Assembly: GCA_016287565.1 (NCBI GenBank)
Contig: JAEFAM010000001.1
Span: 137,344 to 201,343, forward strand
From: Clostridia bacterium
Lineage (GTDB): Bacteria; Bacillota; Clostridia; UBA1212; UBA1255
Direction of reading: 5' to 3'
Length of the DNA: 64,000 bases
Below are positions 2,655-57,975 of this stretch, one piece after another (positions within the stretch are counted from its first letter, which is position 1; every line of letters begins with the position of its first letter). The notes beneath the pieces are model-generated. The model searched no databases. It had not been told where the DNA came from and was given only the letters and a program-made list of their open reading frames with translations. Made by a program: the position numbers and the translations under genes.

Positions 2655-4415
2655 ATGAAAAAGGGACACACGTCGACTCTCGTATCGACTCTCGTATTGG
2701 CGCTGACACTTGCTTTAACGCTTTTATTCAGCCTGTTGCCCGGCACGGCAGTAAATGCCGCGGAGGAGCAGAACGCCGAGCTGTTTCTGAGCGATCTGAC
2801 TCCGGTCAGCACCGCGCCGGTGGGAAAAGTTGACCCCAATACCGGGGCGCCGGTGGCAGGCTACACCGCGGATTCCGTCATCAACCGCTTTAACGGTTCA
2901 GGCAACACGCTTGTCCTCAACGGCCGGACGTACGAAAAAGGCATAGGCCTCGTTCCGTACGGAGACGATACGAGCGGGCAGGCAGGTTATATAAACGCAG
3001 AAGCCGTTTTCGACATCTCAGGTTACAGCAGCACGTATGACGTGTTTCTGGCAACGGTAGGAAGGCGCGACTGGCCGGAAGATCCGGGACCATACGTGTA
3101 CAGCATGGTCTGCCGGATATACGTCGACAACGTTCTCGCCGCGGAAAGTCCTTCACTCAATTTCGGAGAAGTGTACGAGGCGAAAGTCAGCATCAAGGGC
3201 GCCAAAGAGTTAAAACTGGTCACCACCTGCGGTACGGATACGTACCATTACGACTGTTCGGTATGGGGCAACGCACGGCTGGCCGCCGATAAATCATTCG
3301 CCCCGTCTTCCATAGAATTCACTTCGTTCCCGGCAAAGTCGATCTATGCCGTGGGCGAAGCGCTGAATATGAGCGGAGGCTCGATCACCGTAAAATATTC
3401 CGACGGCAGCACCGCGCAATTGCCTATGTTAGATACCATGTTGACCGGCTACGATCCGCAAACCACAGGCAAACAGCAGCTTGCGATCTCATATTTAGGC
3501 CATCAGGAAGAGTGGATCGTCACGGTGGCAGATCTGGTGTATCTGAGCGATATTGCCCCTAAATCCCTGAATATTCTGGAAAACGAAGTAGATACTTTCG
3601 GCGTCGATACGACCTCGAAGGGCAGCCCGATAATCATAAACGAGATCGATTACAAAAAAGGGTTCGGCGTGCATCCCTTTGAAGACGCTTCCGCGGAGAT
3701 AGAATATGACATCAGCGCGTACAGCGGCGAATACAATATCTTTTACGCGGTGGCGGGCAAGGATAAAACTACCGGCGAGCCCGGTTCCTTCGTGAAAGTG
3801 TACGTTTACGTTGACGGCGTCCAGGCGGCAGAATCGGACTATCTGACGTACGGCGACGAGTTCGTTATTGCCATAGATATTTCCGGCGGGTCAACGCTTC
3901 TGATTGAAGTTTCGCCGACGGAAGACGGCTATCACTGGGACAGCACCTGCTTCGGCGACGCCATGCTGCTAAAGTCGGCAATAGAGAAAAAGGAACTGGA
4001 ACTGCCGGAAAAACTGGAATATGAGAAAGGAAAACTGCTCAACCTCTCCGGCGGGGCGATCGTTTATCATTACGACAACGGTATCGTTTCCCGCGTTCCG
4101 CTGACGGACGAAATGGTGAAGGGATTTGACAAAGATACTGCCGGTACTCAGACGCTCACGGTGGAATACGGCGGCGAAACGGTTTCTTTCGAAGTGACCG
4201 TAAAAGAACCGGAGCCCGATCCCACCGCGCCGCCCACCGCCGAACCGAAAAAGACGGCAGATCCGTCCGAAGCCGGCAATACAGACGCGCCGGACCGCAG
4301 GACCGGCGGCAAAAACAGCTGGATCGCGCCTGTTATTATTGCAGCCGCCGCCATATGTGTTATAATTATTGCCGTCACAGTGATACTGAAAAAGAGCCGC
4401 AAACAGGGGAAATAA
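2655..4415 (+). CDS. Secreted, C-terminally membrane-anchored carbohydrate-binding surface protein with two NPCBM-like domains and Ig-like domains.
   Basis: Signal peptide MKKGHTSTLVSTLVLALTLALTLLFSLLPGTAVNA. Duplicated KGIGLVPYGDD.../KGFGVHPFED... modules typical of NPCBM. C-terminal hydrophobic anchor IAPVIIAAAAICVIIIAVTVILKKSRK. Strong RBS GGAGGA. Confidence 0.8.
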   Translation: MKKGHTSTLVSTLVLALTLALTLLFSLLPGTAVNAAEEQNAELFLSDLTPVSTAPVGKVDPNTGAPVAGYTADSVINRFNGSGNTLVLNGRTYEKGIGLVPYGDDTSGQAGYINAEAVFDISGYSSTYDVFLATVGRRDWPEDPGPYVYSMVCRIYVDNVLAAESPSLNFGEVYEAKVSIKGAKELKLVTTCGTDTYHYDCSVWGNARLAADKSFAPSSIEFTSFPAKSIYAVGEALNMSGGSITVKYSDGSTAQLPMLDTMLTGYDPQTTGKQQLAISYLGHQEEWIVTVADLVYLSDIAPKSLNILENEVDTFGVDTTSKGSPIIINEIDYKKGFGVHPFEDASAEIEYDISAYSGEYNIFYAVAGKDKTTGEPGSFVKVYVYVDGVQAAESDYLTYGDEFVIAIDISGGSTLLIEVSPTEDGYHWDSTCFGDAMLLKSAIEKKELELPEKLEYEKGKLLNLSGGAIVYHYDNGIVSRVPLTDEMVKGFDKDTAGTQTLTVEYGGETVSFEVTVKEPEPDPTAPPTAEPKKTADPSEAGNTDAPDRRTGGKNSWIAPVIIAAAAICVIIIAVTVILKKSRKQGK

Positions 4416-18524: not shown

Positions 18525-18599
18525 CAGTGGAACGGTGACAGACTTGAGTTTTCGTGCCGTCAAACGGTTCTCGAACGGGTGACAGACTTGATTTAATTT
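18520..18599 (+). repeat. Dispersed repeat element E1 (modules A+, B+, A+) overlapping the stop codon of the upstream CDS.
   Basis: AACGGTGACAGACTTGAGTTTT / CGTGCCGTCAAACGGTTCTCG / AACGGGTGACAGACTTGATTT. Confidence 0.8.
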
Positions 18600-19963: not shown

Positions 19964-20094
19964 GCGAGAACCGTTTGACGGCACGCAAAAAGCAAGTCTG
20001 TCACGCGTTCGCACCTCGGAAAAACCAAGTCTGTCACCTGTTCGCTTACCCGTCTAAACGGCTTCGCGTGAATACCTAAATAAGGAAGACAATT
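19964..20094 (-). repeat. Dispersed repeat element E2 (B-, A-, A-, partial C, D). Module D AATAAGGAAG supplies the RBS of the downstream gene.
   Basis: GCGAGAACCGTTTGACGGCACG, two CAAGTCTGTCAC units, TTACCCGTCTAAACGGCTTCGCG, then CCTAAATAAGGAAGACAATT just before the ATG. Confidence 0.8.
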
Positions 20095-21036
20095 ATGAGC
20101 AATATCATTGAAATAAACAGCCTCGACGCACCTGAACTTGACCCGATCCTGCGGCTCACCGGCCGCCAGCTGGTCAATAAATTGCACCCCGACGAGGGGT
20201 CGTTCGTCGTCGAGAGCCCGATCGCTATTGACGCGGCGCTTACCGCCGGGTGCGAACCCGTGGCGCTGCTGGTGGAGGAGCGGTTCATCCGGGGCAATAT
20301 GCAGGGCAGGGCGGCGGAAATCGTTGACCGTGTCGGCAATGCGCCGGTCTACGTGGCTTCCCGGGAGCTGCTTGCGGGAATAACCGGCTTCGAGCTGACG
20401 CGCGGGGCAATGTGCGTGATGCGGAGGCCGGCGGAGCGGGGCTGGCGCGAGGTGATTGCCGGGGCAAGAAGGGTCGCCGTGCTGGAAAATATCGTTGACA
20501 GCACTAACGTGGGGGCAATTTTTCGCTCTGCCGCGGGGCTGGGCATTGACACGGTGCTGCTGACGCCCGAGTGCTGCGATCCGCTGTGCAGGCGTGCGGT
20601 GCGCGTGAGCATGGGGACGGTGTTGATGGTGCCTTTTGCGCGGATCTGCGAGGAAGCGGAAAACAGGCCGCGAACGGGGGACAGACTTGGGTTTTCGCCG
20701 GCGCGAACGGGGGACAGACTTGGGTTTTCGCCGCCGCGAACGGGTGACAGACTTGAGTTTTCCGGGTCCGGCTGGCCTCTTCCGGCGATCGACGAATTGA
20801 AAAAAAGCGGGTTCAAACTGGCGGCAATGGCGCTTCGCGACGACTCTCTGGCGGTCAACGACCCTGCCCTTCGCTCGGCGGAGAAGCTGGCGATCGTTCT
20901 GGGCACGGAGGGTGACGGACTTCTGCAGGAGACGATCGACAATTGCGATTACACGGTCTGCATTCCCATGGCGGGGCGGGTCGATTCATTGAACGTCGGA
21001 GCCGCAGCGGCCATCGCATTTTTCGAAATGGTTTAA
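20095..21036 (+). CDS. TrmH/SpoU-family RNA 2'-O-methyltransferase (RlmB-like), carrying an in-frame 33-aa insertion derived from the repeat element.
   Basis: SpoU motifs VLENIVDSTNVGAIFRSAAGLG, LAIVLGTEGDGL, CIPMAGRVDSLNVGAAAAIAF. An inserted (RTGDRLGFSPA)x3 segment sits between conserved blocks. Confidence 0.85.
   Translation: MSNIIEINSLDAPELDPILRLTGRQLVNKLHPDEGSFVVESPIAIDAALTAGCEPVALLVEERFIRGNMQGRAAEIVDRVGNAPVYVASRELLAGITGFELTRGAMCVMRRPAERGWREVIAGARRVAVLENIVDSTNVGAIFRSAAGLGIDTVLLTPECCDPLCRRAVRVSMGTVLMVPFARICEEAENRPRTGDRLGFSPARTGDRLGFSPPRTGDRLEFSGSGWPLPAIDELKKSGFKLAAMALRDDSLAVNDPALRSAEKLAIVLGTEGDGLLQETIDNCDYTVCIPMAGRVDSLNVGAAAAIAFFEMV
20668..20765 (+). repeat. Three tandem 33-nt copies of repeat module A inside the TrmH-family CDS (in-frame).
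   Basis: CGAACGGGGGACAGACTTGGGTTTTCGCCGGCG x2 plus CGAACGGGTGACAGACTTGAGTTTTCCGG. Confidence 0.85.
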
Positions 21037-21043
21037 GTCAGGT

Positions 21044-21208
21044 GCGAACAGGTAACAGACTTGAGTTTTTGTCCTACCTCATTTAAAAACCAGCGAGAAG
21101 CCGTTTAGACTGGTAAGAATTTTGTCTTTCCAAAATTCGTGCCGTCAAACGGTTCTCGTGCGAACAGGTGACAGACTTGAGTTTTTCCCTTGAGTTTTTC
21201 CTCTTTCC
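21044..21208 (+). repeat. Dispersed repeat element E4 (A+, C-, B+, A+, partial tail).
   Basis: GCGAACAGGTAACAGACTTGAGTTTTT ... CGAGAAGCCGTTTAGACTGGTAAGAATTTTGTCTTTCCAAAATT CGTGCCGTCAAACGGTTCTCG TGCGAACAGGTGACAGACTTGAGTTTTT. Confidence 0.8.
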
Positions 21209-22722: not shown

Positions 22723-24300
22723 ATGAAAAAATTTTTAGGCATCGAACTGGGATCCACGAGGATAAAATCCGTCCTCACCGACGAACGGGGGACAGTGATC
22801 GCGAAAGGCATATTCGACTGGGAAAACAGGCTTGTCCGGGGGCTGTGGAGCTACGACCTGGACGAAGCGCTGCGAGGCCTGGCGGAGAGTTACAAAGAGC
22901 TCTCGGAGGAATATGCGAAAAAAACGGGAGAAACGCTGAAAAAAGTTGACGCGGTGGGAATTTCCGGCATGATGCACGGATATCTGGCGCTGGACGACGA
23001 AGACCGGCAGGTGGGGATATTCCAGACGTGGCGCAACACCCACACGGAAGCCGCGGCGACGGAATTGTCCGAGCTGTTCCGGTTCAACGTGCCGCAGCGG
23101 TGGAGCGTTGCCCAGTATTACCAGGCGGAGCTGTCCGGCGAGGACCACGTCAGGCATGCGGCGAAGCTGTTCACGCTGGCGGGGTACGTGCATTACAGGC
23201 TCACGGGCAACCACGTGTCGGGCGTGGGCGAGGCGTCGGGCATGTTTCCGGTGAACGGGAACGATTACGACGGAACAATGATCGAGGCGTTCGACAGGCG
23301 GCTGGCCGAGCGGGGGCTCCAGGTGCGGTTCCGTCAACTGCTTCCGAGGATCCAGATGGCGGGCGAGATCGGCGGCTATCTGACGCCCGAAGGCGCGAAA
23401 CTGATCGATCCCAGCGGCGAGCTGCTGCCGGGAGCGCCGCTGTGCCCTCCCGAAGGCGACATTCAGACCAATATGGTCTGCGCCAACTCCATCGCGGCGG
23501 GCGCGGGCAACGTTTCTGCCGGCACTTCCTGCAATCTGGTTGCCGTGCTGGACAAGCTTCCGGCCACTTACAGCCCCGACATCGACATCGTTTCCACGCC
23601 CGACGGATTGCCCGCGGCAATGATACATTCCAACAACTGCACTTCCGAGATCAACGCCTGGATCAACCTTTTCGGTGAATTGACCGCGCTTTTCGGACGG
23701 GAAGTGCCTAAAAACGAGCTTTTCCGGCAGCTTTTCCGCCATTCGCTGGAGAGCGACGGCGACGTGGGCGGCCTCGTGGGGTACAACTACCTGGCGGGCG
23801 AGGCCATTGCCGGGTGCGAGACCGGCGCCCTGACCGTCTCCCGCAACCCCTCGGGCAAGCTTTCTCTTGCCAACTTTATGCAGATGCAGATCTATTCCGC
23901 GCTGGGTGCGCTGTCTCTCGGCGTGGACAATCTTCGTTCCATCGGGGCCAACATCCGTTTCGTTACGGCGGCGGGCGGCTATTACAAGACCGAGTTCGTG
24001 GGGCAGAACGCTACTTCGTCAATGTTTGGCGTTCCCGTGACGGTGATGGCGGGCGCGGGCGAGGGCGGCCCCTGGGGCATGGCCCTGCTGGCGATCTATA
24101 TGTTCGTCGCGAACGGGGGACAGACTTGCGTTCGCGGCGGTGAGCTGACGCTGGCGCGGTTCCTGGACGACGTCTTTGCCGACGTGGAGAAGACTACCGT
24201 CATGGCGACGCAGGAGGAGATCGACAAGTGCCGCCGGTTTACCGAGAGGTACAAGAAGTGCCTTGACGCGCAGCGCAGGATGACGGAGCTTATTCGATAA
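22723..24300 (+). CDS. FGGY-family carbohydrate kinase (putative xylulokinase) with a 9-aa in-frame repeat-derived insertion.
   Basis: GIELGSTRIKSV N-terminal ATPase motif. About 525 aa. Follows xylA. RBS AAAGGAG. The NGGQTCVRG segment is encoded by the repeat. Confidence 0.8.
   Translation: MKKFLGIELGSTRIKSVLTDERGTVIAKGIFDWENRLVRGLWSYDLDEALRGLAESYKELSEEYAKKTGETLKKVDAVGISGMMHGYLALDDEDRQVGIFQTWRNTHTEAAATELSELFRFNVPQRWSVAQYYQAELSGEDHVRHAAKLFTLAGYVHYRLTGNHVSGVGEASGMFPVNGNDYDGTMIEAFDRRLAERGLQVRFRQLLPRIQMAGEIGGYLTPEGAKLIDPSGELLPGAPLCPPEGDIQTNMVCANSIAAGAGNVSAGTSCNLVAVLDKLPATYSPDIDIVSTPDGLPAAMIHSNNCTSEINAWINLFGELTALFGREVPKNELFRQLFRHSLESDGDVGGLVGYNYLAGEAIAGCETGALTVSRNPSGKLSLANFMQMQIYSALGALSLGVDNLRSIGANIRFVTAAGGYYKTEFVGQNATSSMFGVPVTVMAGAGEGGPWGMALLAIYMFVANGGQTCVRGGELTLARFLDDVFADVEKTTVMATQEEIDKCRRFTERYKKCLDAQRRMTELIR
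24108..24136 (+). repeat. Single repeat module A (palindromic CGCGAACG-GGGGACAGACTTG-CGTTCGCG) inserted in-frame in the FGGY kinase CDS.
   Basis: Identical 27-nt core to the copy at 39299-39327. Confidence 0.8.
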
Positions 24301-24302
24301 AG

Positions 24303-24450
24303 ACGCGAACCGTTTGACGGCACGAAGCGCGAACCGTTTGAGGGCACGAATTTTGGAAAGACAAAATTCTTACCCGCCTAAACGGCTTCGCGCGGGTTTT
24401 AAATAAGGAAAGAATTGCCCGAAACCCAAGTCTGTCACCTGTTCGCGGGC
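24303..24450 (-). repeat. Dispersed repeat element E6 (B-, B-, C, D, A-).
   Basis: GCGAACCGTTTGACGGCACGAA x2, AATTTTGGAAAGACAAAATTCTTACCCGCCTAAACGGCTTCGCG, TTAAATAAGGAAAG, CCCAAGTCTGTCACCTGTTCGCG. Confidence 0.8.
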
Positions 24451-24530: not shown

Positions 24531-26378
24531 ATGAAGAAAAGAACGCGCATAACAGTATTGACGCTCGCACTGGCGCTGGCCGCGGCGATATTGACCGGGC
24601 TCAGTTCCTGCGGAAAAACGGGCGGTGACGGAGATCCCAACCGGTTGTCGCGGGAGGACCAGGCGAGGGCGGAAAAACTGTTGTCCTCGGTGAGCGTGTC
24701 GGAGGTCCCGGCCATCAAAAACGAGAAGGTCGCCGCGGCGCAGGAGGATCCGGACATTTCGGTGTGGTTCGACCATTCGTTCCGCAACACGCCGGCGGAG
24801 GACGTGACGCCCACAGATTTCGACGCGTACCAGATCAAGCTGGCGAAAAACGAGATCGAGGGGTGCCACTTTATTGTCGCCTCGAAAACGGCGAAAACCG
24901 ATATTTCGCTCTCGGTATCGCCATTCATTGACGCTGCGGGGCACGTTCTGGACTGCGAGGTGTGCTACGGCTGGTATTTCGAGGGCGTCGAGGGCAAGAC
25001 CGTCGCAGATCCGATCCCGGTGCTGGAGCACAGCTTCGATCTGGCCGCCGGACGCAGCCAGATGTTTATTATCAAGGTCAAATCTACCGCCGAAACGAAC
25101 GCGGGTCAATATTCTGCCGTGGTGACGTTGACGGACGGCGCGGGCAAGGAGCTGAAAAAGGCCAACGTTTATGCATTCGTATGGGATTTTGCCCTTCCCG
25201 CCGCCTCCAGCTGCAAGACGCTCAGCGACCTCAACGAATGGAGCGTGATCGTGGGCGCCAACCGCGAAGAGACCACCGTTGACGGTCTCGAAGACGATCT
25301 TTACGCGCTTTATTACGAATATTTGCTGGAAAATAAGATAAATTGCTACACTTTGCCCTACGCGAAACGGGGCCAGTTTTGGGACGAGCGGGTGGAGCAG
25401 TACCTGGACGACCCGCGGCTGACGGCGTACACGCTGTGCTGGAAGATCCATCCGGAAGCCACTGCCAGCGACGACAACCTGAAAGCGTACCTCCAGGCGG
25501 CCTACGACCGGGTCTCGAAGAAGCAGGAGTGGCTGGACAAGGCATATTTTTACCCCAACGAGGGGGACGAACCGCTCACGCAGGCGACTCTGGACCTCAT
25601 AAAAAAGTACGATTCCATGTACACTGCCGTTTTCGGCAGCCACAAACTGATAATTCCCGTTCATTACGACACGGTACTGCCCTCCGGCGACGATTTCTTC
25701 CGCTATTTGGAGGATGCGGTCAACGTCTGGTGCCCGAAAACCTACTTTTTTAACACCGCGGCGGACAAAAAATACAACGATCAGCTCTACACGGAGTTCT
25801 ACGGACCCGAAATGGAGAGCAATTTCGGCCTGTTCAAAGACCGGATGGCCGCGGCCCGGGCGGACGGCGACGAAGTGTGGTGGTACGTCACCCGCTTCCC
25901 CCACGACCCCGAGATCACGTTGTCCATCAGCGACGAATCCGTGAAGCACCGCCTGCTGTTCTGGCAGCAAAAGCTGTACAACGTTGACGGATTTTTGTAT
26001 TACATGGTCAACGACTGGGAAAATGCCAAACAATGGACGAAAAAGTATGAGAGCGACGTCATGGGGACGACGGTCAACACCTACGGCAACGGCGTGCTGA
26101 TCTACCCGGGCGGGGCGCTTCAGGAATATATCGACAAGTACGGGAGCGACGGCTACCCGGGCCCCATCGGTTCGCTCAGGCTGGAGTCGGTGCGCGACGG
26201 GGTGGAAGATTACGATTATTTCACGATCCTCGATCAGCTTTACGGCGAAGGAACGTCAACCCTGCTGATCAGGCAGATCACCACGTCGCTGGGCTCTTAC
26301 AGCACGGACACGGAACTGTTCGACAGGCTGAGGACGGCGGCGGGGGACCTGATAGCGAAAAAGACTGCGCGAAACTGA
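24531..26378 (+). CDS. Lipoprotein with a DUF4091-like putative glycoside-hydrolase domain.
   Basis: Lipobox LTGLSSCG. 615 aa. VWDFALP and other blocks recalled as DUF4091-like. Assignment is from memory and is moderate. Confidence 0.7.
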   Translation: MKKRTRITVLTLALALAAAILTGLSSCGKTGGDGDPNRLSREDQARAEKLLSSVSVSEVPAIKNEKVAAAQEDPDISVWFDHSFRNTPAEDVTPTDFDAYQIKLAKNEIEGCHFIVASKTAKTDISLSVSPFIDAAGHVLDCEVCYGWYFEGVEGKTVADPIPVLEHSFDLAAGRSQMFIIKVKSTAETNAGQYSAVVTLTDGAGKELKKANVYAFVWDFALPAASSCKTLSDLNEWSVIVGANREETTVDGLEDDLYALYYEYLLENKINCYTLPYAKRGQFWDERVEQYLDDPRLTAYTLCWKIHPEATASDDNLKAYLQAAYDRVSKKQEWLDKAYFYPNEGDEPLTQATLDLIKKYDSMYTAVFGSHKLIIPVHYDTVLPSGDDFFRYLEDAVNVWCPKTYFFNTAADKKYNDQLYTEFYGPEMESNFGLFKDRMAAARADGDEVWWYVTRFPHDPEITLSISDESVKHRLLFWQQKLYNVDGFLYYMVNDWENAKQWTKKYESDVMGTTVNTYGNGVLIYPGGALQEYIDKYGSDGYPGPIGSLRLESVRDGVEDYDYFTILDQLYGEGTSTLLIRQITTSLGSYSTDTELFDRLRTAAGDLIAKKTARN

Positions 26379-26441
26379 AGTCTGTCACCCGTTCGAGAAC
26401 CGTTTGACGGCACGAAACTGAAGTCTGTCCCTCGTTCGGGG
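26378..26441 (-). repeat. Dispersed repeat element E7 (A-, B-, A-), starting at the stop codon of the upstream CDS.
   Basis: GAAGTCTGTCACCCGTTCG AGAACCGTTTGACGGCACGAA ACTGAAGTCTGTCCCTCGTTCGGGG. Confidence 0.8.
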
Positions 26442-28525: not shown

Positions 28526-28549
28526 GCCGTCGGGAATTATTTCAAAAAC

Positions 28550-28660
28550 CGCGGGAAATATTACGAAAATCATATATTTCCCGGGAAATAGCATCAACCG
28601 CCACGTATTATTACCCGGGAAATATCCCGAACGTTCCGAATTTTCCCGGGGAATAACGAG
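28550..28660. repeat. Cluster of TTTCCCGGGAAA-type palindromes (GGGAAATATTAC, ATATTTCCCGGGAAATAG, TTACCCGGGAAATATC, TTTTCCCGGGGAATAAC) upstream of the metal ABC transporter operon.
   Basis: Read directly. The same motifs recur at 38443-38560. Confidence 0.6.
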
Positions 28661-29456: not shown

Positions 29457-30321
29457 AACGGTATTCAGTTACGGCTTCGTTTTCCGGGCAATGCTGGTGG
29501 GCGTCCTGATCTCGGTCTGCGCGGCGCTGCTCGGCGTCAGCCTGGTGCTCAGGCGCTGCTCCATGATCGGAGACGGGCTGTCCCACGTAGGCTTCGGAGC
29601 GCTGGCGGTCGCCGCGGCGCTGGGGGCCGCTCAATTGTGGGTGGCGCTACCGGTGGTCGTGGTGGTGGCTTTCCTCATAATAAGGCTGGGAGACGATTCC
29701 AAGCTCAGCAGCGATTCGGCCATTGCCCTGCTTTCCAGCGGCGTCCTTGCCCTGGGCGTCATGATCGTGTCGCTCACCGGCTCCAACACTAACCTCAGCG
29801 ACTTCCTGTTCGGATCGGTTTTTGCCCTCGGGGAAGCCGACGCGATCCTCAGCCTGGTGCTTTCCGTCATCGTACTGGCGCTTTTCGTGCTGTTCTACAA
29901 CAAGATCTTCGCAGTGACTTTCGATGCCGCGTTCGCCCGGGCGACCGGTACCCGCGAAGGTTTTTACAATACTTTCATCGCGCTGCTCACCGCCGTAACC
30001 GTGGTGGTCGGTATGCGTCTCGTTGGCGCCCTGCTCGTGACGAGCCTGATAATTTTCCCGCCGCTCACGGCAATGAGGGTCTGCAAGAAATTCCGCTCCG
30101 TGGTGATCTGCTCCGGCGTGCTGTCCGCGCTCAGCTTCGTCATCGGAATGATGATCTCCCTGGGCGTGCGCTCCGCTCCCGTGGGCGCCAGCGTCGTGCT
30201 GGTCAACGTGGTGTTTTTCCTGCTTTTCCTCTGCGCAGGGAAGGTCAGGTCAATGATCCGTACCCGGACCGACGGGGGCCGGGATGGTACGGATCCGCAG
30301 CCGGGGGACCGGGGACAATGA
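29425..30321 (+). CDS. Metal ABC transporter permease (ZnuB/MntB-like).
   Basis: MNAAIITDIFKTVFSYGFVFRAMLVGVLISV... polytopic ABC-3 permease pattern. Overlaps the znuC-like stop. Confidence 0.8.
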   Translation: MNAAIITDIFKTVFSYGFVFRAMLVGVLISVCAALLGVSLVLRRCSMIGDGLSHVGFGALAVAAALGAAQLWVALPVVVVVAFLIIRLGDDSKLSSDSAIALLSSGVLALGVMIVSLTGSNTNLSDFLFGSVFALGEADAILSLVLSVIVLALFVLFYNKIFAVTFDAAFARATGTREGFYNTFIALLTAVTVVVGMRLVGALLVTSLIIFPPLTAMRVCKKFRSVVICSGVLSALSFVIGMMISLGVRSAPVGASVVLVNVVFFLLFLCAGKVRSMIRTRTDGGRDGTDPQPGDRGQ

Positions 30322-31457
30322 CCGTTTCAACGGCCGTCCCGCCGGGCGCCCCTGCCGGAGAGGCGTCGTGTGCCCCGTCCGGCGCCCCGTCCTGCGCCCC
30401 GGCCGCCGCTGTTGCTCCTTCTTTCGGTCAACGCCTGAAGGCGGAATTCGGCCGGAAAGTTTACAAATTGTCCCTGGATATCGGCTGCACCTGCCCCACC
30501 CGCGACGGCACCAAAGGCACGCGCGGCTGCATTTTCTGCTCTCAGGCCGGCAGCGGCGACTTCGCCGTACGGTTCACCGGCAAACAGGAAGAACTTGACC
30601 TGGCCAAATCCCGTCTCAAAGGCAAGATCGACACGGACAATGCCGGTTTTATCGCTTATTTTCAAAATTTCACCAACACGTACGCTCCCGTTACGTACCT
30701 GGAGACGCTTTTCACCGCCGCGCTGAAAGACCCGTCGGTTGTGGCGTTGTCGATCGCCACGCGGCCCGACTGCCTCGGGAGCGACGTCATCGAAATGATC
30801 CGACGGCTGTGCCTGCGGACAACCATTTTCGTGGAGCTTGGCCTTCAGACCATCCATCCTGCCACCGCGGCTTTCATCCGCCGCGGCTTCGACCTGCGCG
30901 AGTACGACGATGCGGTGGTCGCGCTTCACGGCGCCGGCGCCAGGGTGGTGACCCACCTGATATTCGGGCTGCCTTATCCGGTTGCCGGACGCAAGTCTGT
31001 CCGAGAACCGTTTGACGGCACGAATTTTGGAAAAAACAAAATTCTTACCCGTCTAAACGGCTTCTCGCTGGTTCCGAACAAGGAAAGGAAGCAGGAACTA
31101 AGGCCTGTTATTTGTTCGGCTGAAACGGAACTGGCCCTCGAGTCGAGGGAAATGATGCTGGGATCGGTAAGATACGTTGTCCGCGCCGGAACGGACGGAG
31201 TGAAATTTCAGCTGCTCCACGTACTTAAAGGGACGGACCTGGCGGACCTGTACCTGCGAGGCGCGTTCAGAACGTTGACCTTCGACGAATACAAGGAAAT
31301 AATAAAAGAGGCAGCCGAGCTGCTGCCTCCCGAAATCGCCATTCACCGCCTCACCGGCGACCCGCCGCGAAAACTGCTGATCGCGCCACAATGGTGCACC
31401 GACAAAAAGCGGGTATTGAACGAGATCAATCGAAAAATTCTTCGTAAAGCGCCTTGA
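30318..31457 (+). CDS. TIGR01212-family radical SAM protein (YhcC-like), carrying an about 36-aa in-frame insertion encoded by a composite repeat element.
   Basis: GCTCPTRDGTKGTRGCIFCSQ radical-SAM Cys motif typical of TIGR01212. 379 aa against about 310 aa typical. The inserted segment VAGRKSVREPFDGTNFGKNKILTRLNGFSLVPNKERKQ maps onto repeat modules A-, B-, C. Confidence 0.8.
   Translation: MTVSTAVPPGAPAGEASCAPSGAPSCAPAAAVAPSFGQRLKAEFGRKVYKLSLDIGCTCPTRDGTKGTRGCIFCSQAGSGDFAVRFTGKQEELDLAKSRLKGKIDTDNAGFIAYFQNFTNTYAPVTYLETLFTAALKDPSVVALSIATRPDCLGSDVIEMIRRLCLRTTIFVELGLQTIHPATAAFIRRGFDLREYDDAVVALHGAGARVVTHLIFGLPYPVAGRKSVREPFDGTNFGKNKILTRLNGFSLVPNKERKQELRPVICSAETELALESREMMLGSVRYVVRAGTDGVKFQLLHVLKGTDLADLYLRGAFRTLTFDEYKEIIKEAAELLPPEIAIHRLTGDPPRKLLIAPQWCTDKKRVLNEINRKILRKAP
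30986..31091 (-). repeat. Composite repeat element E8 (A-, B-, C, D-like) lying entirely inside the radical SAM CDS, in-frame.
   Basis: CGGACGCAAGTCTGTCCGAG AACCGTTTGACGGCACGAA TTTTGGAAAAAACAAAATTCTTACCCGTCTAAACGGCTTCTCG ...AACAAGGAAAGG. Confidence 0.8.
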
Positions 31458-35851: not shown

Positions 35852-36057
35852 GCAGGGGACAGAGGAGCAACGGGGGACAGACCCCGGTTGCCGATGCCGG
35901 AAACGCAAGTCTGTCCGCGAATCGTTTGACGGCACGAATTTTGGAAAGACAAAATTCTTACCCGTCTAAACGACTTCGCGCCGGTTTTGTAATAAGGAAA
36001 CAGAAGTCTGTTCCTCATTTCCTGGCGGGGAAACAGAAGTCTGTCCCTCGTTCGCGG
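35852..36057 (-). repeat. Dispersed repeat element E9 (partial A+, A-, B-, C, D, A-, A-).
   Basis: ...CAACGGGGGACAGAC; GGAAACGCAAGTCTGTCCGCG AATCGTTTGACGGCACGAA TTTTGGAAAGACAAAATTCTTACCCGTCTAAACGACTTCGCG ...TAATAAGGAAACAGAAGTCTGTTCC...CAGAAGTCTGTCCCTCGTTCGCGG. Confidence 0.8.
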
Positions 36058-38427: not shown

Positions 38428-38442
38428 ACGCTTTTTAAACGG

Positions 38443-38560
38443 TAATATATTTCCCGGGAAATATTACACGGCGTCGGGAAATAACCGTAAATTTCGAAAA
38501 ACGCCGCGTAAATTCCGGAAAATTACGGAAAAACCCGGGAAATTCCGGGAAAAGTCCGGC
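38443..38560. repeat. Second cluster of TTTCCCGGGAAA-type palindromes (ATATTTCCCGGGAAATATTAC; AACCCGGGAAATTCCGGGAAAAG) upstream of GH36-like gene #2.
   Basis: Same motifs as 28550-28660. Confidence 0.6.
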
Positions 38561-38597
38561 AATGCCGGCGAACAAAAGGAAATCAGGAGTTGTTGTT

Positions 38598-40643
38598 ATG
38601 AAACCGTCAAAAACAGATCTTGCCCTCGGAAAATATCTGCCCCGCTTCACCGAAAGCGGCATCGTCCCCTTCAGCTACAAGCTCGACGGAGTTGCCTATA
38701 ATGGCATCCCCGCGGAATTTTCGCCCAAAGCGGAAACGCGTAAGATCGACGCCAACATCATCTTCTCGGTGATCACCGGCAGGACGCCCGCGGGCCTGGA
38801 GCTCAGGGCCGAATGCAAAGAATATATCGATTATCCCGTGACCGAATGGGTCATGTCTATGACGAACACGGACTCCGCGAATTCGGCGGTGATAACCGGC
38901 TGGCAGGCAGAAGCGGAATTTCCGTTGACGCCATTCAACGAGGAGGCTCCGGAGCCGCGGGACGGGAAAAATAACGCGAAACTTCTCCACGGCAACGGCG
39001 ACAACGTCACCGATCAGGGCTACTCCTGGTTCGTTGACGCGCTGTGCCCCGAGCCCCTCTGCATCGCGCCCTCGGGAGACGGGACCTCCTGCAACGGCGC
39101 ATTCCCGTACATGCGGCTGATCCTGGACGGGTACGACGTCAATATCGCCGTGGGCTGGACCGGGACCTGGCAGCTGACCGCCTCCGAGAGCGGCGGGACC
39201 GTCAAGATCGCTGCGTCTCAGAAGCGTTTCAACACCTACCTCGAACCCGGTGAGACGGTGCGCACCCCGCTGCTGGTGCTCCAGACCGCTTCCGACTGCC
39301 GCGAACGGGGGACAGACTTGCGTTCGGCCGGATGCGACCAGGACGCTGCCCGCAACCTCTGGCGCAGCTGGTACATCGACCACGTGCTGCCCAGGCAGGA
39401 CGGCAGACCCCTTCAGCCCAAGCTGGTGCTCCACACGTTCATGATAGATGGATTGCCCGAATTTTGCGGCGTCACCGAAGAAAACCAGCTAAAAGCGATA
39501 CAGACGTATATTGACCGCCGCCTCAAACCGGACATCTGGTGGATCGACGCAGGCTGGTACCCCTGCAACAACAACTGGCCCACGGGCACCGGCAACTGGT
39601 TCCCGAACCCGGATCATTTCCCCGACGGCATGCATAAGGTCGGAGAAATATGCAAGGCAAACGGCATCGACCTGCTGCTCTGGTTCGAGCCGGAGCGCGT
39701 CTACCGTAACACGGAGCTTTGGAACGACCACCCCGAATATCTGATCTTCGGTGCCCCCGAGGACGACAACGCACTCCTGTTTCTGGGCGATCCCGCCGCC
39801 CGCAGGTGGATCACCGACCGTGTGGACAACGTCATCAAAGAGGCCGGGGTCAATGTCTACCGCCAGGATTTCAACTTCGCGCCTGCGAGCTACTGGGCCC
39901 GCGGCGAGGCGGACAACAGGCAGGGCATTCACGAAAACCTGCATATCCAGGGCTATTATGCATTCTGGGACGAGCTGCTCAGGCGCAACCCCGGGCTCTG
40001 GATCGACTCCTGCTCCTCCGGCGGCCGCCGCAACGACATAGAAACCATGAAGCGCGCCGTGCCCCTCCACTACACCGACATCGGCTACGGCCACCATCCC
40101 ACCAAACAGAAGCAGCACCGCCAGATGTTCGAGTGGATACCATATTTCCGCGCCCACAATATGAGCTGGGACAGGCCAGACGGCACCTACGGCGGCAATA
40201 TGCCCGTTGACGAGTTCGCGTACCAGAACGCCCTCACGCCCTCCGTCACCTCGATGATAGAGTGGAACGACCCGGAGGAGCGGTTCGAGATCGGCCGCGC
40301 GTTCCATCCCATCTGGCGAAAAGCGGCCGAGATCATGCTCCGCGCCGATTACTACCCGTTGACCGAGACCAACGCCAGCCCCGCCGACTGGTATGCCATG
40401 CAGTTCTACGATCCGGAGCGCCGGGACGGTTTCGTCCAGGTGATACGTAATATTGCCGTCGAGGATGGCCGGACGACGCTTTTCGGCTTCGTTCCGGAGG
40501 AAAATCTCCACAGGATCTACCGGTTCTACGACCCGGTCTCCAATCAGGTCTGGACCATGTCCGGCGAGAATTTCCGCTCGGGCGGCTTCGAGGAGACGCT
40601 CCCGAAACGCAGCGGCAGGATCTGGTTCTATTGTGTTTTGTGA
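38598..40643 (+). CDS. GH36-like glycoside hydrolase, cytoplasmic paralog of 4418-6541, carrying a 9-aa in-frame repeat-derived insertion.
   Basis: WWIDAGWY, LLLWFEPE, YRQDFNF, CSSGGRRND motifs. RBS AGGAG. CRERGTDLRS is extra relative to the paralog. Confidence 0.8.
   Translation: MKPSKTDLALGKYLPRFTESGIVPFSYKLDGVAYNGIPAEFSPKAETRKIDANIIFSVITGRTPAGLELRAECKEYIDYPVTEWVMSMTNTDSANSAVITGWQAEAEFPLTPFNEEAPEPRDGKNNAKLLHGNGDNVTDQGYSWFVDALCPEPLCIAPSGDGTSCNGAFPYMRLILDGYDVNIAVGWTGTWQLTASESGGTVKIAASQKRFNTYLEPGETVRTPLLVLQTASDCRERGTDLRSAGCDQDAARNLWRSWYIDHVLPRQDGRPLQPKLVLHTFMIDGLPEFCGVTEENQLKAIQTYIDRRLKPDIWWIDAGWYPCNNNWPTGTGNWFPNPDHFPDGMHKVGEICKANGIDLLLWFEPERVYRNTELWNDHPEYLIFGAPEDDNALLFLGDPAARRWITDRVDNVIKEAGVNVYRQDFNFAPASYWARGEADNRQGIHENLHIQGYYAFWDELLRRNPGLWIDSCSSGGRRNDIETMKRAVPLHYTDIGYGHHPTKQKQHRQMFEWIPYFRAHNMSWDRPDGTYGGNMPVDEFAYQNALTPSVTSMIEWNDPEERFEIGRAFHPIWRKAAEIMLRADYYPLTETNASPADWYAMQFYDPERRDGFVQVIRNIAVEDGRTTLFGFVPEENLHRIYRFYDPVSNQVWTMSGENFRSGGFEETLPKRSGRIWFYCVL
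39299..39327 (+). repeat. Single repeat module A inserted in-frame in GH36-like gene #2.
   Basis: CGCGAACGGGGGACAGACTTGCGTTCGG. The paralog at 4418-6541 lacks these codons at the aligned position. Confidence 0.85.
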
Positions 40644-54987: not shown

Positions 54988-56091
54988 ATGAAAATTTCCG
55001 ATATCGACAGCAATCTGAGAGTGGCGGAAACGCTGGAACTGCCGGACGTACAATGGTTCGGCGCAGGCAGCGATATTTTCCGGGTCTACGGTACGTCGGG
55101 AGACTGCGGCAGCGGCCCGTTTAGAAGGGTGCCCGAAGACGTTGCAGCGGCAACCAGCGAGGCGGTGGCGTATCTTGCCACCAACACGGCGGGGATCAGG
55201 CTTAGGCTGCGCACCGATTCGCCTTACGTTGCAATCCACGCGGAGTGGCATTGCCAGTGCCAGTTCCCGCATATGGCCGTGACGGGCGTCAGCGGATTCG
55301 ATCTGTACCGCATTTCCGGCGGCGCCTCCGGCAACGGCGTCCAGGAATTTGCGGGCACTTTCATCCCGCCTTTTATTTCGCCTCACGGGTACGAGAGCGT
55401 GCTGCCCACGCCCGGCGGCATGCAGGACCTGGTGATATATTTCCCGCTGTACAACGACGTTTCCAAGCTTTACGTAGGACTTCAGGCCGGGGCGAAGACG
55501 GAGGCTCCCGGGACGTATTCATATAAATTGCCCGTGGCGTTTTACGGGTCGTCCATCACCCAGGGAGGATGCGCTTCGAGGCCCGGCACGGCGTATCAGG
55601 CGATGTTGTCCCGGGCGCTGGACGTGGATATAGTGAACCTGGGCTTTTCGGGCAGCGCGCTGGGGGAGACCGCCATTGTCCGGTATATCGCGTCGCTTCC
55701 CTTGCTGGCCTTCGTGTGCGATTACGACCACAACGCCCCCACGCCGGAGCACCTGGAACGCACCCATTATCCGCTTTACAAAACGGTCAGGGAGGCGCAG
55801 CCGGACCTGCCCATATTATTCCTTTCGAAGCCCGACGGCCGGAACATAAATCCGGACGCGGTCAATATCAACCTCCGCCGCGCGGCGATCATCCGCGAGA
55901 CATACGACCGGGCGGTTCGCGAGGGGGACAATAACGTCTATTATATCAACGGCTTTTCTCTTTATGAGGAAGACGTGACGATGGCGGCAAGCGTCGACGG
56001 CTGCCATCCCAACGACCTGGGCTTCTATTTCTTCTTTAAGGCGCTGCTGCCGGTGCTGAAGTCGCTGCTCGGAGGGAAAGTGGGCGCCTGA
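54988..56091 (+). CDS. SGNH/GDSL hydrolase with an N-terminal beta-sandwich domain.
   Basis: FYGSSITQG block I and DGCHPND block V of SGNH hydrolases. Confidence 0.8.
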   Translation: MKISDIDSNLRVAETLELPDVQWFGAGSDIFRVYGTSGDCGSGPFRRVPEDVAAATSEAVAYLATNTAGIRLRLRTDSPYVAIHAEWHCQCQFPHMAVTGVSGFDLYRISGGASGNGVQEFAGTFIPPFISPHGYESVLPTPGGMQDLVIYFPLYNDVSKLYVGLQAGAKTEAPGTYSYKLPVAFYGSSITQGGCASRPGTAYQAMLSRALDVDIVNLGFSGSALGETAIVRYIASLPLLAFVCDYDHNAPTPEHLERTHYPLYKTVREAQPDLPILFLSKPDGRNINPDAVNINLRRAAIIRETYDRAVREGDNNVYYINGFSLYEEDVTMAASVDGCHPNDLGFYFFFKALLPVLKSLLGGKVGA

Positions 56092-56437: not shown

Positions 56438-56827
56438 ATGGCAGATTTTGACGAGAAATTAAAGAATCTCAACAATACGGCTGATCATACCGAAGAGATG
56501 GATCCTGCCGATATTGAGGGCAACAAAGTTATGGCGATACTCGCCTACATCGGCATCCTGGTACTTATCCCGCTGCTTGCGGCGAAAGATTCCAAATTCG
56601 CCCGCTTCCACTGCAATCAGGGCCTGGTGCTCTTCATCGCGGAACTCATCATTAGTATCGTTTTAGGTATCCTTGGCGCGATCCCCAAGATCGGATGGAT
56701 CTTCGGAATCCTCGGTTCCCTGGTAGGCATCTGCTTCCTTGTCCTCGTCATCATCGGCATCATCAACGCCGTCAACGGCAAGGCGAAGGAGCTTCCTCTG
56801 GTTGGCAAATTCAAGATCCTGAAATGA
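56438..56827 (+). CDS. Small membrane protein, DUF4870-like.
   Basis: VMAILAYIGILVLIPLL...FARFHCNQGLVLFI signature. RBS AAAGGAGAGG. Confidence 0.75.
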   Translation: MADFDEKLKNLNNTADHTEEMDPADIEGNKVMAILAYIGILVLIPLLAAKDSKFARFHCNQGLVLFIAELIISIVLGILGAIPKIGWIFGILGSLVGICFLVLVIIGIINAVNGKAKELPLVGKFKILK

Positions 56828-57711: not shown

Positions 57712-57975
57712 ATGACAAAGGAAAGAAAACAGGAAATCATCAAGACCTACGGCCTCAAGGAAGGCGACACCGGATCCCCCGAGGTCCAGGTCGCTCTGCT
57801 CACCGAGCGCATCAACGAGCTCAACAAGCACCTCGAGTCCCATAAGAAGGACCACCACTCCAGACGCGGCCTGCTCATCATGGTCGGTCACAGACGCGGC
57901 CTCCTTTCTTACCTTCAGAAGATCGACGTAGCGCGCTACCGTTCGCTGATCGAAAGACTTGGTCTGAGAAAGTAA
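57712..57975 (+). CDS. rpsO: 30S ribosomal protein S15.
   Basis: 87 aa. ...[24 protein letters not shown]...HHSRRGLL... Confidence 0.95.

What the first reader, a model, noticed from the sequence alone, without database searches (positions are those of the whole stretch)
20668..20765. Three tandem in-frame repeat units, (RTGDRLGFSPA)x3, inside a TrmH/SpoU-family methyltransferase
Three consecutive 33-nt copies of module A are translated as RTGDRLGFSPA-RTGDRLGFSPP-RTGDRLEFSGS. They sit between conserved SpoU blocks, after VPFARICEEA and before the substrate-binding region. The protein is about 313 aa against about 250-270 aa typical. Tandem expansion of a mobile repeat inside an essential-type RNA-modification enzyme is unusual and may be strain-variable.
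Basis: seen in the sequence. Interest (0 to 1): 0.8.

Follow-up and report, generated by a model that had tools for sequence, protein, structure and literature searches.

The report
Interspersed repeat array inside methyltransferase gene
A 33-base module of a repeat family private to one uncultured Clostridia lineage sits three times in a row, in frame, in a floppy surface loop of an RNA methyltransferase. The same family has also entered three other enzyme genes, and its copy number differs between close strains, much like the "selfish DNA in genes" known from Rickettsia.

Summary
Window 20667-20769 holds three head-to-tail 33-nt units translated as RTGDRLGFSPA/RTGDRLGFSPP/RTGDRLEFSGS, inside an intact 313-aa SpoU/TrmH-family gene (20095-21036).

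The unit is one module of a mosaic interspersed repeat family, with about 20 copies between 18.5 and 39.3 kb. Its other modules form a roughly 66-nt hairpin. The array lies in the catalytic SPOUT domain, between motifs 1 and 2, and AlphaFold2 predicts a disordered loop there. All catalytic motifs are kept, and dN/dS against a 95%-identical relative is 0.15.

Close relatives carry 2 or 4 units. An 83%-identical relative has three decayed units. Homologues at 71% identity or less have none.

The same module is read in the other two frames in xylulokinase (1 vs 2 units between strains) and an alpha-galactosidase (1 vs 2). A complete 135-nt composite element lies in frame in a radical-SAM gene and is absent from the relative.

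No transposase, terminal inverted repeats or clear target duplication were found. No copy turned up in any public collection outside this lineage.

Best reading: tolerated selfish or neutral DNA that expands and contracts by slippage or recombination, filtered by selection to multiples of three. It is an undescribed family that behaves like Rickettsia RPEs and pneumococcal BOX elements.

The parts
20095..21036 (+). Host gene: a two-domain SpoU/TrmH-family RNA 2'-O-methyltransferase, 313 aa, intact
   Evidence: ORF. Pfam PF00588 E=5e-31. Foldseek finds YsgA and RlmR with TM-score (target-normalised) 0.78-0.85. dN/dS 0.149 against the relative.
20667..20769 (+). The finding itself: three tandem 33-nt A-module units (20667-20699, 20700-20732, 20733-20765), translated as residues 193-225
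   Evidence: TRF period 33, score 171. nhmmer E=2e-10 to 5e-10 for each unit. Translation. pLDDT below 50 over residues 188-224.
19965..20070 (-). Intergenic mosaic directly upstream of the SpoU start, in the order C, A, A, B. The two A units are also spaced 33 nt apart. The SpoU ribosome-binding site lies just beyond it, in sequence that resembles the x segment of the composite element.
21044..21190 (+). Intergenic composite element A-x-C-H-B-A directly downstream of SpoU. Modules C, H and B fold into one long hairpin.
   Evidence: DNA fold -24.3 kcal/mol, z -3.75. Strain L003 lacks the 116 nt between the two A modules.
18530..18591 (+). Intergenic A-B-A cluster. It coincides with an 8.3-kb indel breakpoint against the relative.
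24106..24138 (+). One A unit in frame inside xylulokinase (ORF 22723..24300), read in a second frame as VANGGQTCVRG. This unit forms a hairpin.
   Evidence: The relative has two units, 33 nt more. Hairpin -10.7 kcal/mol, z -3.6.
24304..24448 (-). Intergenic composite (A-x-C-H-B-B). It is largely absent from the relative.
26371..26438 (-). Intergenic A-B-A cluster. The relative has a different module arrangement at this spot.
30988..31122 (-). A complete 135-nt composite element in frame inside a TIGR01212-type radical-SAM gene (ORF 30318..31457). It adds 45 aa.
   Evidence: Translation. The 92%-identical orthologue P0122 has an empty site. Fold -29.4 kcal/mol, z -5.25.
35897..36056 (-). Intergenic composite with additional A-like copies
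39298..39330 (+). One A unit in frame inside an alpha-galactosidase (Melibiase-family) ORF 38562..40643, read in the third frame as RERGTDLRS
   Evidence: The relative has two copies 42 nt apart. Family assignment.

Best explanation
**What it is.** The (RTGDRLGFSPA)x3 segment is a tandem array of the 33-nt 'A' module of a lineage-specific mosaic interspersed repeat family. The modules are:
- A, consensus GCGAAC-RGG-K-GACAGACTTG-N-GTT..., whose cleanest form is the hairpin GCGAACG-N13-CGTTCGC.
- C, H and B, which together form one imperfect hairpin of about 66 nt.

**What it does to the protein.** The array sits in the loop after the third strand of the SPOUT catalytic domain of a YsgA/RlmR-like SpoU methyltransferase. 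There it is translated as a disordered surface loop of about 35 residues and is tolerated by a still-functional enzyme.

**Shown.**
- The repeat is dispersed.
- In-frame copies occur in four unrelated genes, using all three sense frames plus the antisense orientation.
- Copy number and presence differ between genomes that are 95-98% identical.
- The host gene is under purifying selection.
- The loop is predicted to be disordered.

**Inferred.**
- An A unit, or a short array, entered the loop by transposition or illegitimate recombination in an ancestor of this species cluster.
- Copy number then changes by replication slippage or unequal recombination between the 33-nt direct repeats.
- Selection keeps only stop-free lengths that are multiples of three. 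This explains why every coding-region period is divisible by three (33, 42, 27, 36 and 135 nt for this family; 30 nt for a second family), while three of the five intergenic periods (43, 43 and 116 nt) are not.

Because the unit is 11 codons long, gain or loss changes loop length. It does not switch the gene on or off.
For: **The repeat is dispersed.**
- The 26-mer gives 9 hits against 0 expected, and the 16-mer gives 13 against 0.04.
- An nhmmer census finds about 20 copies between 18.5 and 39.3 kb.
- The four composite elements share one conserved architecture.

**The modules fold.** C-H-B forms a hairpin with z of -3.75 and -5.25.

**Copy number differs between strains.**
- SpoU has 3 units in the window, 4 in P0002/L003 and 2 in P0003/L004. 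P0004/L005 has three decayed units. Homologues of 275-280 aa have none.
- xylB has 1 unit in the window and 2 in the relative. The alpha-galactosidase has 1 and 2. The radical-SAM gene has a 135-nt insertion where the relative has an empty site.

**Three reading frames are used**. The xylB frame would hit a TGA stop in the GGGTGAC variant, and every xylB copy carries GGGGGAC instead.

**The host enzyme is intact.**
- The AF2 model has mean pLDDT 79.6. The insert scores below 50 and most of the rest of the catalytic domain about 90 or above.
- The fold matches YsgA, RlmR and RlmB.
- All invariant family columns, including N138, G140, R144, E272, G273, G275, I290, M292 and S298-V301, are kept.
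- dN/dS is 0.149.

**The assembly is reproducible.** Identical DNA occurs in two further assemblies.

**Recombination between A modules is visible.** L003 lacks exactly the 116 nt between two direct A modules.
Against: - No mobilising enzyme was found. The Pfam scans of 20 further window ORFs show no transposase or RAYT.
- There are no terminal inverted repeats and no clean target-site duplication at the radical-SAM junction.
- The SpoU units themselves do not fold better than shuffled sequence (z +0.5 to +0.9).
- All copies lie in a 21-kb stretch of the 64-kb window. That is odd for a freely transposing element.
- The 13-nt core GGGGACAGACTTG survives at 37 of 39 positions in a relative whose gene is only 79% identical in DNA. 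This could mean the core is functionally constrained rather than neutral.
- Translation of the loop and enzyme activity were not tested.
Confidence: 0.78

Rival explanations
1. The A core (GACAGACTTG with its GCGAAC flank) is a functional DNA- or RNA-level site. It could be a binding or recombination site for a lineage-specific protein, or a regulatory motif of the sugar-utilisation gene cluster. On this reading the intragenic arrays are maintained or re-homogenised because of that function. This is not exclusive of the main explanation.
For: - Copies occupy most intergenic spacers between 18.5 and 39.3 kb, a region of fucosidase, xylA, xylB, GH123, alpha-galactosidase and similar genes. None lie in the other 43 kb.
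- The core is kept at 37 of 39 positions in L005 although the gene is 79% identical overall (binomial p about 0.007).
- The cores of paralogous coding copies are identical over 24-27 nt while their linkers differ.
Against: - The core is not itself symmetric like a typical operator.
- The number, order and orientation of modules differ at every locus between strains that are 95% identical. That is not expected of conserved regulatory sites.
- Orthologous cores differ at about 3 per 100 nt, close to the genome average (hand count).
- No regulator or partner protein was identified.
Confidence: 0.15
2. The peptide repeat is an adaptive extension of the enzyme, selected for its amino-acid sequence. 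For example, it could be a flexible arginine/aspartate-containing arm that contacts rRNA or a partner protein.
For: - The insert persists, always in frame, across relatives down to 83% protein identity, and a G-D-R-L/V motif is still recognisable there.
- Each G-variant unit carries a net positive charge.
Against: - The same DNA is read in two other frames in xylulokinase and alpha-galactosidase, and also occurs in non-coding spacers.
- Copy number varies from 2 to 4 among near-identical strains.
- The insert is absent from all homologues at 71% identity or less.
- It is predicted to be disordered.
- A phmmer search of 1.84 billion representative proteins finds only unrelated repetitive proteins.
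Confidence: 0.05
3. The array is an assembly artefact, or the gene is a decaying pseudogene.
For: - Short tandem repeats can be mis-assembled.
- The 4-unit variant comes from a 2.5-kb contig with about 2.9x coverage.
Against: - Identical DNA occurs in three assemblies and the protein was seen on 7 contigs.
- The array is only 99 nt.
- Variants differ by whole units.
- The ORF is intact, all family-invariant residues are kept, and dN/dS is 0.15.
Confidence: 0.02

Closest known systems
Rickettsia palindromic elements (RPEs; Ogata et al. 2000 and 2002, as summarised in PMC10969869)
   Same: - A dispersed palindromic repeat family inserted in frame into unrelated housekeeping and metabolic genes.
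- The inserts are translated as extra peptide segments compatible with the host fold.
- The 135-nt composite in the radical-SAM gene is the closest parallel in size and behaviour.
   Different: - RPEs are single copies of about 100-150 bp in Alphaproteobacteria.
- Here the usual coding insert is a 33-nt module that forms tandem arrays of variable copy number.
- The host is an uncultured Clostridia lineage.
- There is presence/absence polymorphism between strains that are 95-98% identical.
- No sequence relationship to RPEs was tested or is expected.
Pneumococcal BOX elements (boxA-boxB(n)-boxC; Croucher et al. 2011, PMC3049150)
   Same: - A modular mosaic repeat in which one short module occurs in tandem arrays of variable, strain-dependent number.
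- Size changes are attributed to slippage or unequal crossover.
- The elements cluster together and can create open reading frames.
   Different: - BOX elements are essentially intergenic or operon adducts.
- They have terminal inverted repeats and target duplications, and boxB is 45 nt (from memory).
- Here the variable module sits inside enzyme-coding sequence in three frames, and no inverted repeats or target duplication were found.
REP/BIME elements of Enterobacteria and Pseudomonas
   Same: - Short imperfect palindromes of about 27-33 nt, combined with other motifs into mosaic clusters in intergenic spacers.
   Different: - REPs are extragenic.
- They carry a GTAG or CGTC tag at one end (abstract of PMC3733652) and are linked to RAYT transposases (from general knowledge).
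- Here the unit starts with GCGAAC, no RAYT was seen in the window, and copies lie inside ORFs.
Coding-region VNTRs, contingency loci and mycobacterial MIRU-VNTRs (from general knowledge)
   Same: - Copy number of a short tandem unit differs between strains, presumably by slipped-strand mispairing.
   Different: - The unit is 11 codons, so there is no frameshift on/off switching.
- The host is a cytoplasmic RNA-modification enzyme rather than a surface protein.
- The unit is a member of a dispersed family rather than a locus-specific repeat.
YsgA (B. subtilis) and RlmR (T. thermophilus) 23S rRNA 2'-O-methyltransferases (PDB 7QIU, 9H1K)
   Same: - Best structural matches of the host protein over both domains (TM-score, target-normalised, 0.78-0.85).
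   Different: - Only 20-25% sequence identity.
- None of the solved relatives has a long loop at this position: the solved chains are 249-267 residues against 313 here.

Membership tests
SPOUT / SpoU-TrmH RNA methyltransferase (host gene) | Match to the SpoU_methylase domain above the curated threshold | tested here: met
   PF00588 scores 108 bits against a cut-off of 29.7. The match is split into two stretches by the insert.
SPOUT / SpoU-TrmH RNA methyltransferase (host gene) | The three conserved catalytic and AdoMet-binding motifs are intact | tested here: met
   N138, G140, R144, E272, G273, G275, I290, M292 and S298-V301 are invariant columns in the 120-sequence alignment and are present in the window protein.
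SPOUT / SpoU-TrmH RNA methyltransferase (host gene) | SPOUT alpha/beta fold, with an N-terminal L30e-like domain in the two-domain subgroup | tested here: met
   The AF2 model matches YsgA, RlmR, AviRb and RlmB over the full length at probability 1.00. The trefoil knot itself was not checked.
RlmB (23S rRNA Gm2251 methyltransferase) equivalog | Score above the NCBIfam equivalog cut-off | tested here: not met
   TIGR00186 scores 97.2 bits against a cut-off of 160.15. NF008386 scores 61.5 against 366.
RPE-like protein-coding interspersed repeats | Multi-copy dispersed repeat family | tested here: met
   About 20 copies in the window, against 0 expected by chance.
RPE-like protein-coding interspersed repeats | In-frame insertion into several unrelated ORFs without disrupting them | tested here: met
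   SpoU, xylulokinase, alpha-galactosidase and the radical-SAM gene all carry copies. Empty or lower-copy alleles exist in relatives.
RPE-like protein-coding interspersed repeats | Palindromic, hairpin-forming sequence | tested here: inconclusive
   The C-H-B composite (z -3.75 and -5.25) and the xylB unit (z -3.6) fold well. The alpha-galactosidase unit (z -0.6) and the SpoU units (z +0.5 to +0.9) do not.
RPE-like protein-coding interspersed repeats | The insert lies at the protein surface and is compatible with the fold | tested here: met
   Met for SpoU only: a disordered loop between strand 181-183 and helix 231-237. Not tested for the other three genes, because the PDB alignments did not cover their insertion sites.
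RPE-like protein-coding interspersed repeats | Sequence homology to the Rickettsia RPE families | not tested
   No comparison was run and none is expected. The claim is 'works like', not 'is a member'.
MITE | Terminal inverted repeats | tested here: not met
   Composite elements are bounded by A modules in direct orientation, not inverted.
MITE | Target-site duplication at filled versus empty sites | tested here: inconclusive
   The radical-SAM junction shows only a vague GTTSCSG similarity. The filled and empty alleles in the spoU-xylA spacer differ by 116 nt, including a 32-nt duplicated A module. That fits A-by-A recombination better than a transposase duplication.
MITE | A related autonomous IS or transposase | not testable with these tools
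   None in the window.
REP/BIME with RAYT | A 20-40 nt imperfect palindrome with a GTAG or CGTC tag at one end | tested here: not met
   A palindrome GCGAACG-N13-CGTTCGC is present, but it starts with GCGAAC, not GTAG or CGTC (criterion taken from the abstract of PMC3733652).
BOX-like modular repeat | A composite of distinct modules, one of which occurs in variable tandem number between strains | tested here: met
   Modules A, x, C, H and B recur in a shared order. A and B occur in tandem, and their number and arrangement differ between the window, the relative and L003.
Phase-variable contingency locus | Copy-number change shifts the reading frame (unit length not divisible by 3) | tested here: not met
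   The unit is 33 nt, and the 2-, 3- and 4-unit alleles are all in frame.

The most novel reading that the evidence does not exclude
The family may be a currently active, enzyme-mobilised mini-element of an uncultured, probably rumen, Clostridia lineage. Its 33-nt hairpin module would be among the shortest units known to colonise protein-coding genes in all three frames, making it a Firmicute counterpart of the Rickettsia RPEs. On this reading the near-invariant GCGAAC...GACAGACTTG core is the recognition site of a dedicated, still unidentified enzyme, for example a RAYT/IS200-like single-strand transposase or a recombinase. The element would then be an ongoing source of new surface loops in enzymes.
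Probability: 0.25. Interest if true: 0.7.

Novelty: new member of a known kind. Interest (0 to 1): 0.52.

Why it matters
In-frame colonisation of enzyme genes by interspersed repeats is documented mainly for Rickettsia, where it has been called a 'unique but recurrent feature' of that genus. This window shows the same behaviour in a free-living gut-type Clostridia lineage.

The events here are recent enough to see filled and empty sites, and 1-, 2-, 3- and 4-unit alleles, among genomes that are 95-98% identical. That makes several questions directly testable:
- how such elements enter genes;
- how selection filters them by frame and by stop codons;
- whether the added loops are neutral.

There are practical uses too. 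The array is a ready-made strain-typing marker for this lineage. It is also a warning for annotation and alignment pipelines: the Pfam domain match is split in two, and the protein is about 35 residues longer than its family.

Tried and rejected
**Searches for the repeat elsewhere.**
1. A GTDB-representative genome scan with GGTGACAGACTTGRGTTT gave 35 single hits. That equals my own back-of-envelope chance estimate (about 35), and none carried the other modules. The species, or at least its repeat family, is therefore not represented there.
2. The JGI metagenome scan gave 0 hits for the 24-mer and 2 chance hits for the module-B 20-mer. IMG/VR gave 2 chance hits. blastn against PLSDB plasmids and INPHARED phages found nothing.
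3. Rfam found nothing at gathering level for the whole window, or at E<=1 for 18.4-21.4 kb. ARAGORN found no tRNA or tmRNA.

**Searches for other proteins carrying the insert.**
4. A concatenated six-frame 'polypeptide' of the modules was searched against 5.8 billion proteins. It recovered only the window's own SpoU and radical-SAM proteins plus the 4-unit SpoU. It even missed the known 2-unit alleles, so it is insensitive to short inserts.
5. phmmer of the 35-aa array against 1.84 billion representatives returned only unrelated repetitive proteins, such as FG-GAP-like and eukaryotic low-complexity repeats.

**Leads that went nowhere.**
6. PNPase length variants of 705 and 725 aa looked like further 11-aa inserts. 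They are only different start-codon calls.
7. PDB sequence alignments for xylulokinase and the alpha-galactosidase do not reach the insertion sites, so the structural position of those inserts is unknown.
8. Pfam scans of 20 further window ORFs found no transposase, RAYT or recombinase.
9. A literature search for the assembly accessions found nothing.
10. DNA-uptake sequences were considered because of a loose resemblance between module B and the Neisseria DUS. I rejected this as coincidental, and no sequence-specific uptake is known in Firmicutes (from general knowledge).
Full report
**1. Observation**

The window holds an uninterrupted ORF at 20095..21036 (+, 313 aa). Its residues 193-225 read RTGDRLGFSPA-RTGDRLGFSPP-RTGDRLEFSGS. 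Tandem Repeats Finder reports 20667-20762 with period 33, 2.9 copies, 93% matches, no indels and score 171.

The protein matches Pfam SpoU_methylase (PF00588, E=5e-31). The match is split into two stretches, residues up to about 185 and residues 231-309, by the insert.

**2. The unit is a module of a dispersed mosaic repeat**

The 26-nt core GCGAACGGGTGACAGACTTGAGTTTT occurs 9 times in the window at up to 3 mismatches, against 0.00 expected. A 16-nt core occurs 13 times against 0.04 expected. An nhmmer profile built from the coding units finds about 20 copies, all between 18.5 and 39.3 kb.

In the intergenic spacers this 'A' module is combined with three other modules:
- B: GTGCCGTCAAACGGTTC
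- C: GAAGCCGTTTAGACGGGTAAG
- H: GAATTTTG-N6-CAAAATTC, a short hairpin

Four composites share one architecture, A-x-C-H-B-(A or A-core), about 135-150 nt long. C, H and B fold together into one long imperfect hairpin. As single-stranded DNA the folds are -24.3 and -29.4 kcal/mol, with z of -3.75 and -5.25 against shuffles.

The cleanest form of A is itself a hairpin, GCGAACG-N13-CGTTCGC. The xylB copy folds at -10.7 kcal/mol, z -3.6. The three SpoU units have a degraded 3' arm (GGTTTTCGC) and fold no better than shuffled sequence.

The spacer just upstream of SpoU holds two A units that are also 33 nt apart (19986-20045, minus strand).

**3. The host protein and where the insert sits**

- *Family.* NCBIfam places the protein below the RlmB equivalog cut-off (97 vs 160 bits). 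It is therefore an uncharacterised SpoU/TrmH paralogue, not RlmB.
- *Fold.* An AlphaFold2 model built on 120 homologues has mean pLDDT 79.6 and pTM 0.78. Foldseek matches the two-domain 23S rRNA 2'-O-methyltransferases YsgA, RlmR, TTHA0275, AviRb and RlmB at probability 1.00 and TM-score (target-normalised) of 0.73-0.85 for the best chains.
- *Position.* Residues 188-224 have pLDDT below 50 and no secondary structure. They lie between strand 181-183 (VPFARI) and helix 231-237. Block means for most of the rest of the catalytic domain are about 87-97.
It is not 'before the substrate-binding region'. In this subgroup the substrate-binding domain is the N-terminal one (established knowledge of RlmB/YsgA-type enzymes).
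- *Function retained.* All family-invariant residues are kept. dN/dS against a 95%-identical relative is 0.149, compared with 0.04-0.08 for the neighbouring genes. The gene is under purifying selection and is not a pseudogene.

**4. Strain variation**

| Protein (locus) | Identity to window | Length | Repeat units |
|---|---|---|---|
| Window protein = P0001 | 100% | 313 aa | 3 |
| P0002 (L003) | 98% | 324 aa | 4 |
| P0003 (L004) | 96% | 298 aa | 2 |
| P0004 (L005) | 83% | 313 aa | 3 decayed (NRLGGDGA / GDRVDGESRAS / AGDRLASVS), DNA periods 27 and 36 nt |
| About 115 further homologues | 71% or less | mostly 275-280 aa | no recognisable unit in those inspected |

These figures come from a search of 5.8 billion proteins and the resulting alignments and insert DNA. 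The window allele has identical DNA in two other NCBI assemblies.

**5. The same family sits in frame in three more genes**

A syntenic 31-kb stretch of a relative was assembled from L004 and L045. It is about 95% identical in DNA to window 18.3-41.3 kb.

- *Xylulokinase (22723..24300).* It contains one unit at 24106-24138, read as VANGGQTCVRG. The relative has two, ANGGQTCVSDG-ANGGQTCVHGG, which is 33 nt more.
- *Melibiase-family alpha-galactosidase (38562..40643).* It contains one unit at 39298-39330, read as RERGTDLRS. The relative has two copies 42 nt apart.
- *TIGR01212-type radical-SAM gene (30318..31457).* It carries a complete 135-nt composite (30988-31122, antisense orientation), translated as a 45-aa insert. 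The 92%-identical orthologue P0122 has a clean empty site.

The three A-type coding inserts use the three different sense frames (RTGDRL / ANGGQT / RERGTD). This argues against selection for a particular peptide and for a DNA-level origin. In the xylB frame the common GGGTGAC variant would create a TGA stop, and all xylB copies carry GGGGGAC instead.

Every coding-region period or insert length is a multiple of three:
- 33, 33 and 33 nt in SpoU
- 33 nt in xylB
- 42 nt in the alpha-galactosidase
- 27 and 36 nt in L005
- 135 nt in the radical-SAM gene

The intergenic spacings are not held to this: they are 33, 43, 43, 24 and 116 nt, and three of the five are not divisible by three. This is the signature expected if selection filters random gains and losses.

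**6. Dynamics and mechanism**

Module number, order and presence differ between the window, the relative and L003 at every repeat cluster compared. One cluster, at 18485-18586, coincides with an 8.3-kb indel.

In the spoU-xylA spacer, L003 lacks exactly the 116 nt between two direct A modules. That is the expected product of recombination or slippage between A units. Read in reverse, it would be an insertion that duplicated a 32-nt A, which is far longer than normal target duplications.

The following were not found:
- terminal inverted repeats;
- a clear target duplication at the radical-SAM junction;
- any transposase-like gene among the 20 further window ORFs scanned.

I therefore treat these points as shown: the repeat is dispersed, it occurs in frame in several genes, and it is polymorphic. 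I treat these as inferred: the original entry happened by transposition or illegitimate recombination, and later expansion and contraction happen by slipped-strand mispairing or unequal recombination. Because the unit is 11 codons, changes alter loop length and cannot act as a frameshift switch.

**7. Distribution**

No search outside this lineage found the family:
- Exact-pattern scans of GTDB representative genomes gave 35 single hits, equal to my own rough chance estimate and without any other module.
- JGI metagenomes gave 0 hits and then 2 chance hits.
- IMG/VR gave 2 chance hits.
- blastn against plasmids and phages found nothing.
- Rfam found nothing.

Sources name the neighbouring conserved proteins only as 'Clostridia bacterium'. 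The sample labels of the relatives (WILK20, XIEF21) suggest ruminant gut metagenomes, but that rests on my memory of those studies and is not a test.

**8. Unexplained points**

- All copies lie within a 21-kb, sugar-utilisation-rich part of the window.
- In L005, whose gene is only 79% identical in DNA, the 13-nt core GGGGACAGACTTG is kept at 37 of 39 positions (p about 0.007), while the rest of each unit has decayed.
- Coding copies share identical 24-27-nt cores while their linkers differ.

These points leave room for a DNA- or RNA-level role for the core, or for ongoing homogenisation. This is rival 1, at about 0.15, and it does not exclude the main reading.

**9. Comparison with known systems**

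In behaviour the family is closest to Rickettsia palindromic elements, which are interspersed palindromic repeats inserted in frame into many unrelated genes (review PMC10969869).

In architecture and dynamics it is closest to pneumococcal BOX elements. Those are modular, with a short module in a variable, strain-dependent tandem number attributed to slippage or unequal crossover (PMC3049150). It also resembles REP/BIME mosaics.

It fails the defining tests for three classes:
- MITEs: no terminal inverted repeats, and the target duplication is inconclusive.
- Canonical REPs: no GTAG or CGTC tag, the copies are not extragenic, and no RAYT was seen.
- Contingency loci: the unit length is divisible by three.

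I therefore say it works like an RPE or BOX element, but I do not file it as a member of any described family.

**10. Verdict**

The array is one visible instance of a broader phenomenon in this window that has not been described for this lineage. The kind of phenomenon is known, so I rate it a new member of a known kind.

Interest is moderate, about 0.5. It is a clean, recent and polymorphic example outside Rickettsia that would let the mechanism and the selective filter be studied. It does not overturn current understanding.

Noticed in passing
window 24106-24138 (xylulokinase ORF 22723..24300); relative L045 about 3700-3780: One 33-nt A unit lies in frame and is read as VANGGQTCVRG. The 95%-identical relative has two units, giving 536 aa against 525.
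   Followed up: yes
window 39298-39330 (alpha-galactosidase ORF 38562..40643): One A unit lies in frame in the third reading frame (RERGTDLRS). The relative has two copies 42 nt apart.
   Followed up: yes
window 30988-31122 (radical-SAM ORF 30318..31457): A complete 135-nt composite repeat element is translated as a 45-aa insert. The 92%-identical orthologue P0122 has an empty site.
   Followed up: yes
L046 413-1513 (P0123) vs P0124; window 28530-28660 and 38440-38560: A second short-repeat family is built on the palindrome TTTCCCGGGAAA. It fills two intergenic spacers of the window. In a sister lineage, 30-nt tandem units of it form a 49-aa in-frame insert at the very same loop of the radical-SAM protein (366 vs 317 aa).
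   Followed up: partly
window 18485-18586 vs relative L004 144-8458: The A-B-A repeat cluster marks the breakpoint of an 8.3-kb indel. In the relative the extra DNA carries an AraC-type regulator, 1216-aa and 564-aa proteins, and a DUF1349 protein.
   Followed up: no
window 20045-20097: The SpoU ribosome-binding site and start (taaataaggaagacaattATG) lie in sequence resembling the x segment of the composite element (reverse complement of TCCTTTCCTTATTTAAAA). The repeat may therefore supply the gene's translation-initiation region.
   Followed up: no
window 56083-56222: A 43-nt tandem repeat (3.3 copies, 97% matches) starts about 6 nt before the stop codon of the GDSL-lipase gene (54988..56091), so that stop codon lies inside the first repeat unit.
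   Followed up: no
window 57043-57467: An 83-nt tandem repeat (5.1 copies, 88% matches) lies in the spacer between a small membrane-protein gene (56438..56827) and rpsO (57712..57975), which itself precedes pnp. It has no Rfam match at gathering level, and its function is unknown.
   Followed up: no
window 30318-30430: The radical-SAM ORF starts with an Ala/Pro-rich low-complexity extension of about 35 aa (TRF period 12/24 at 30364-30409). The extension differs from the relative and is missing in more distant homologues. It may be a mis-called start or another variable segment.
   Followed up: no
L005 975-989 (3' end of the SpoU orthologue P0004): In the 83%-identical relative the gene's last codons (VPKGQT-stop) run into an A-like core, GGGACAGACTTGA. 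A downstream repeat module there has become the C-terminus and the stop codon.
   Followed up: no
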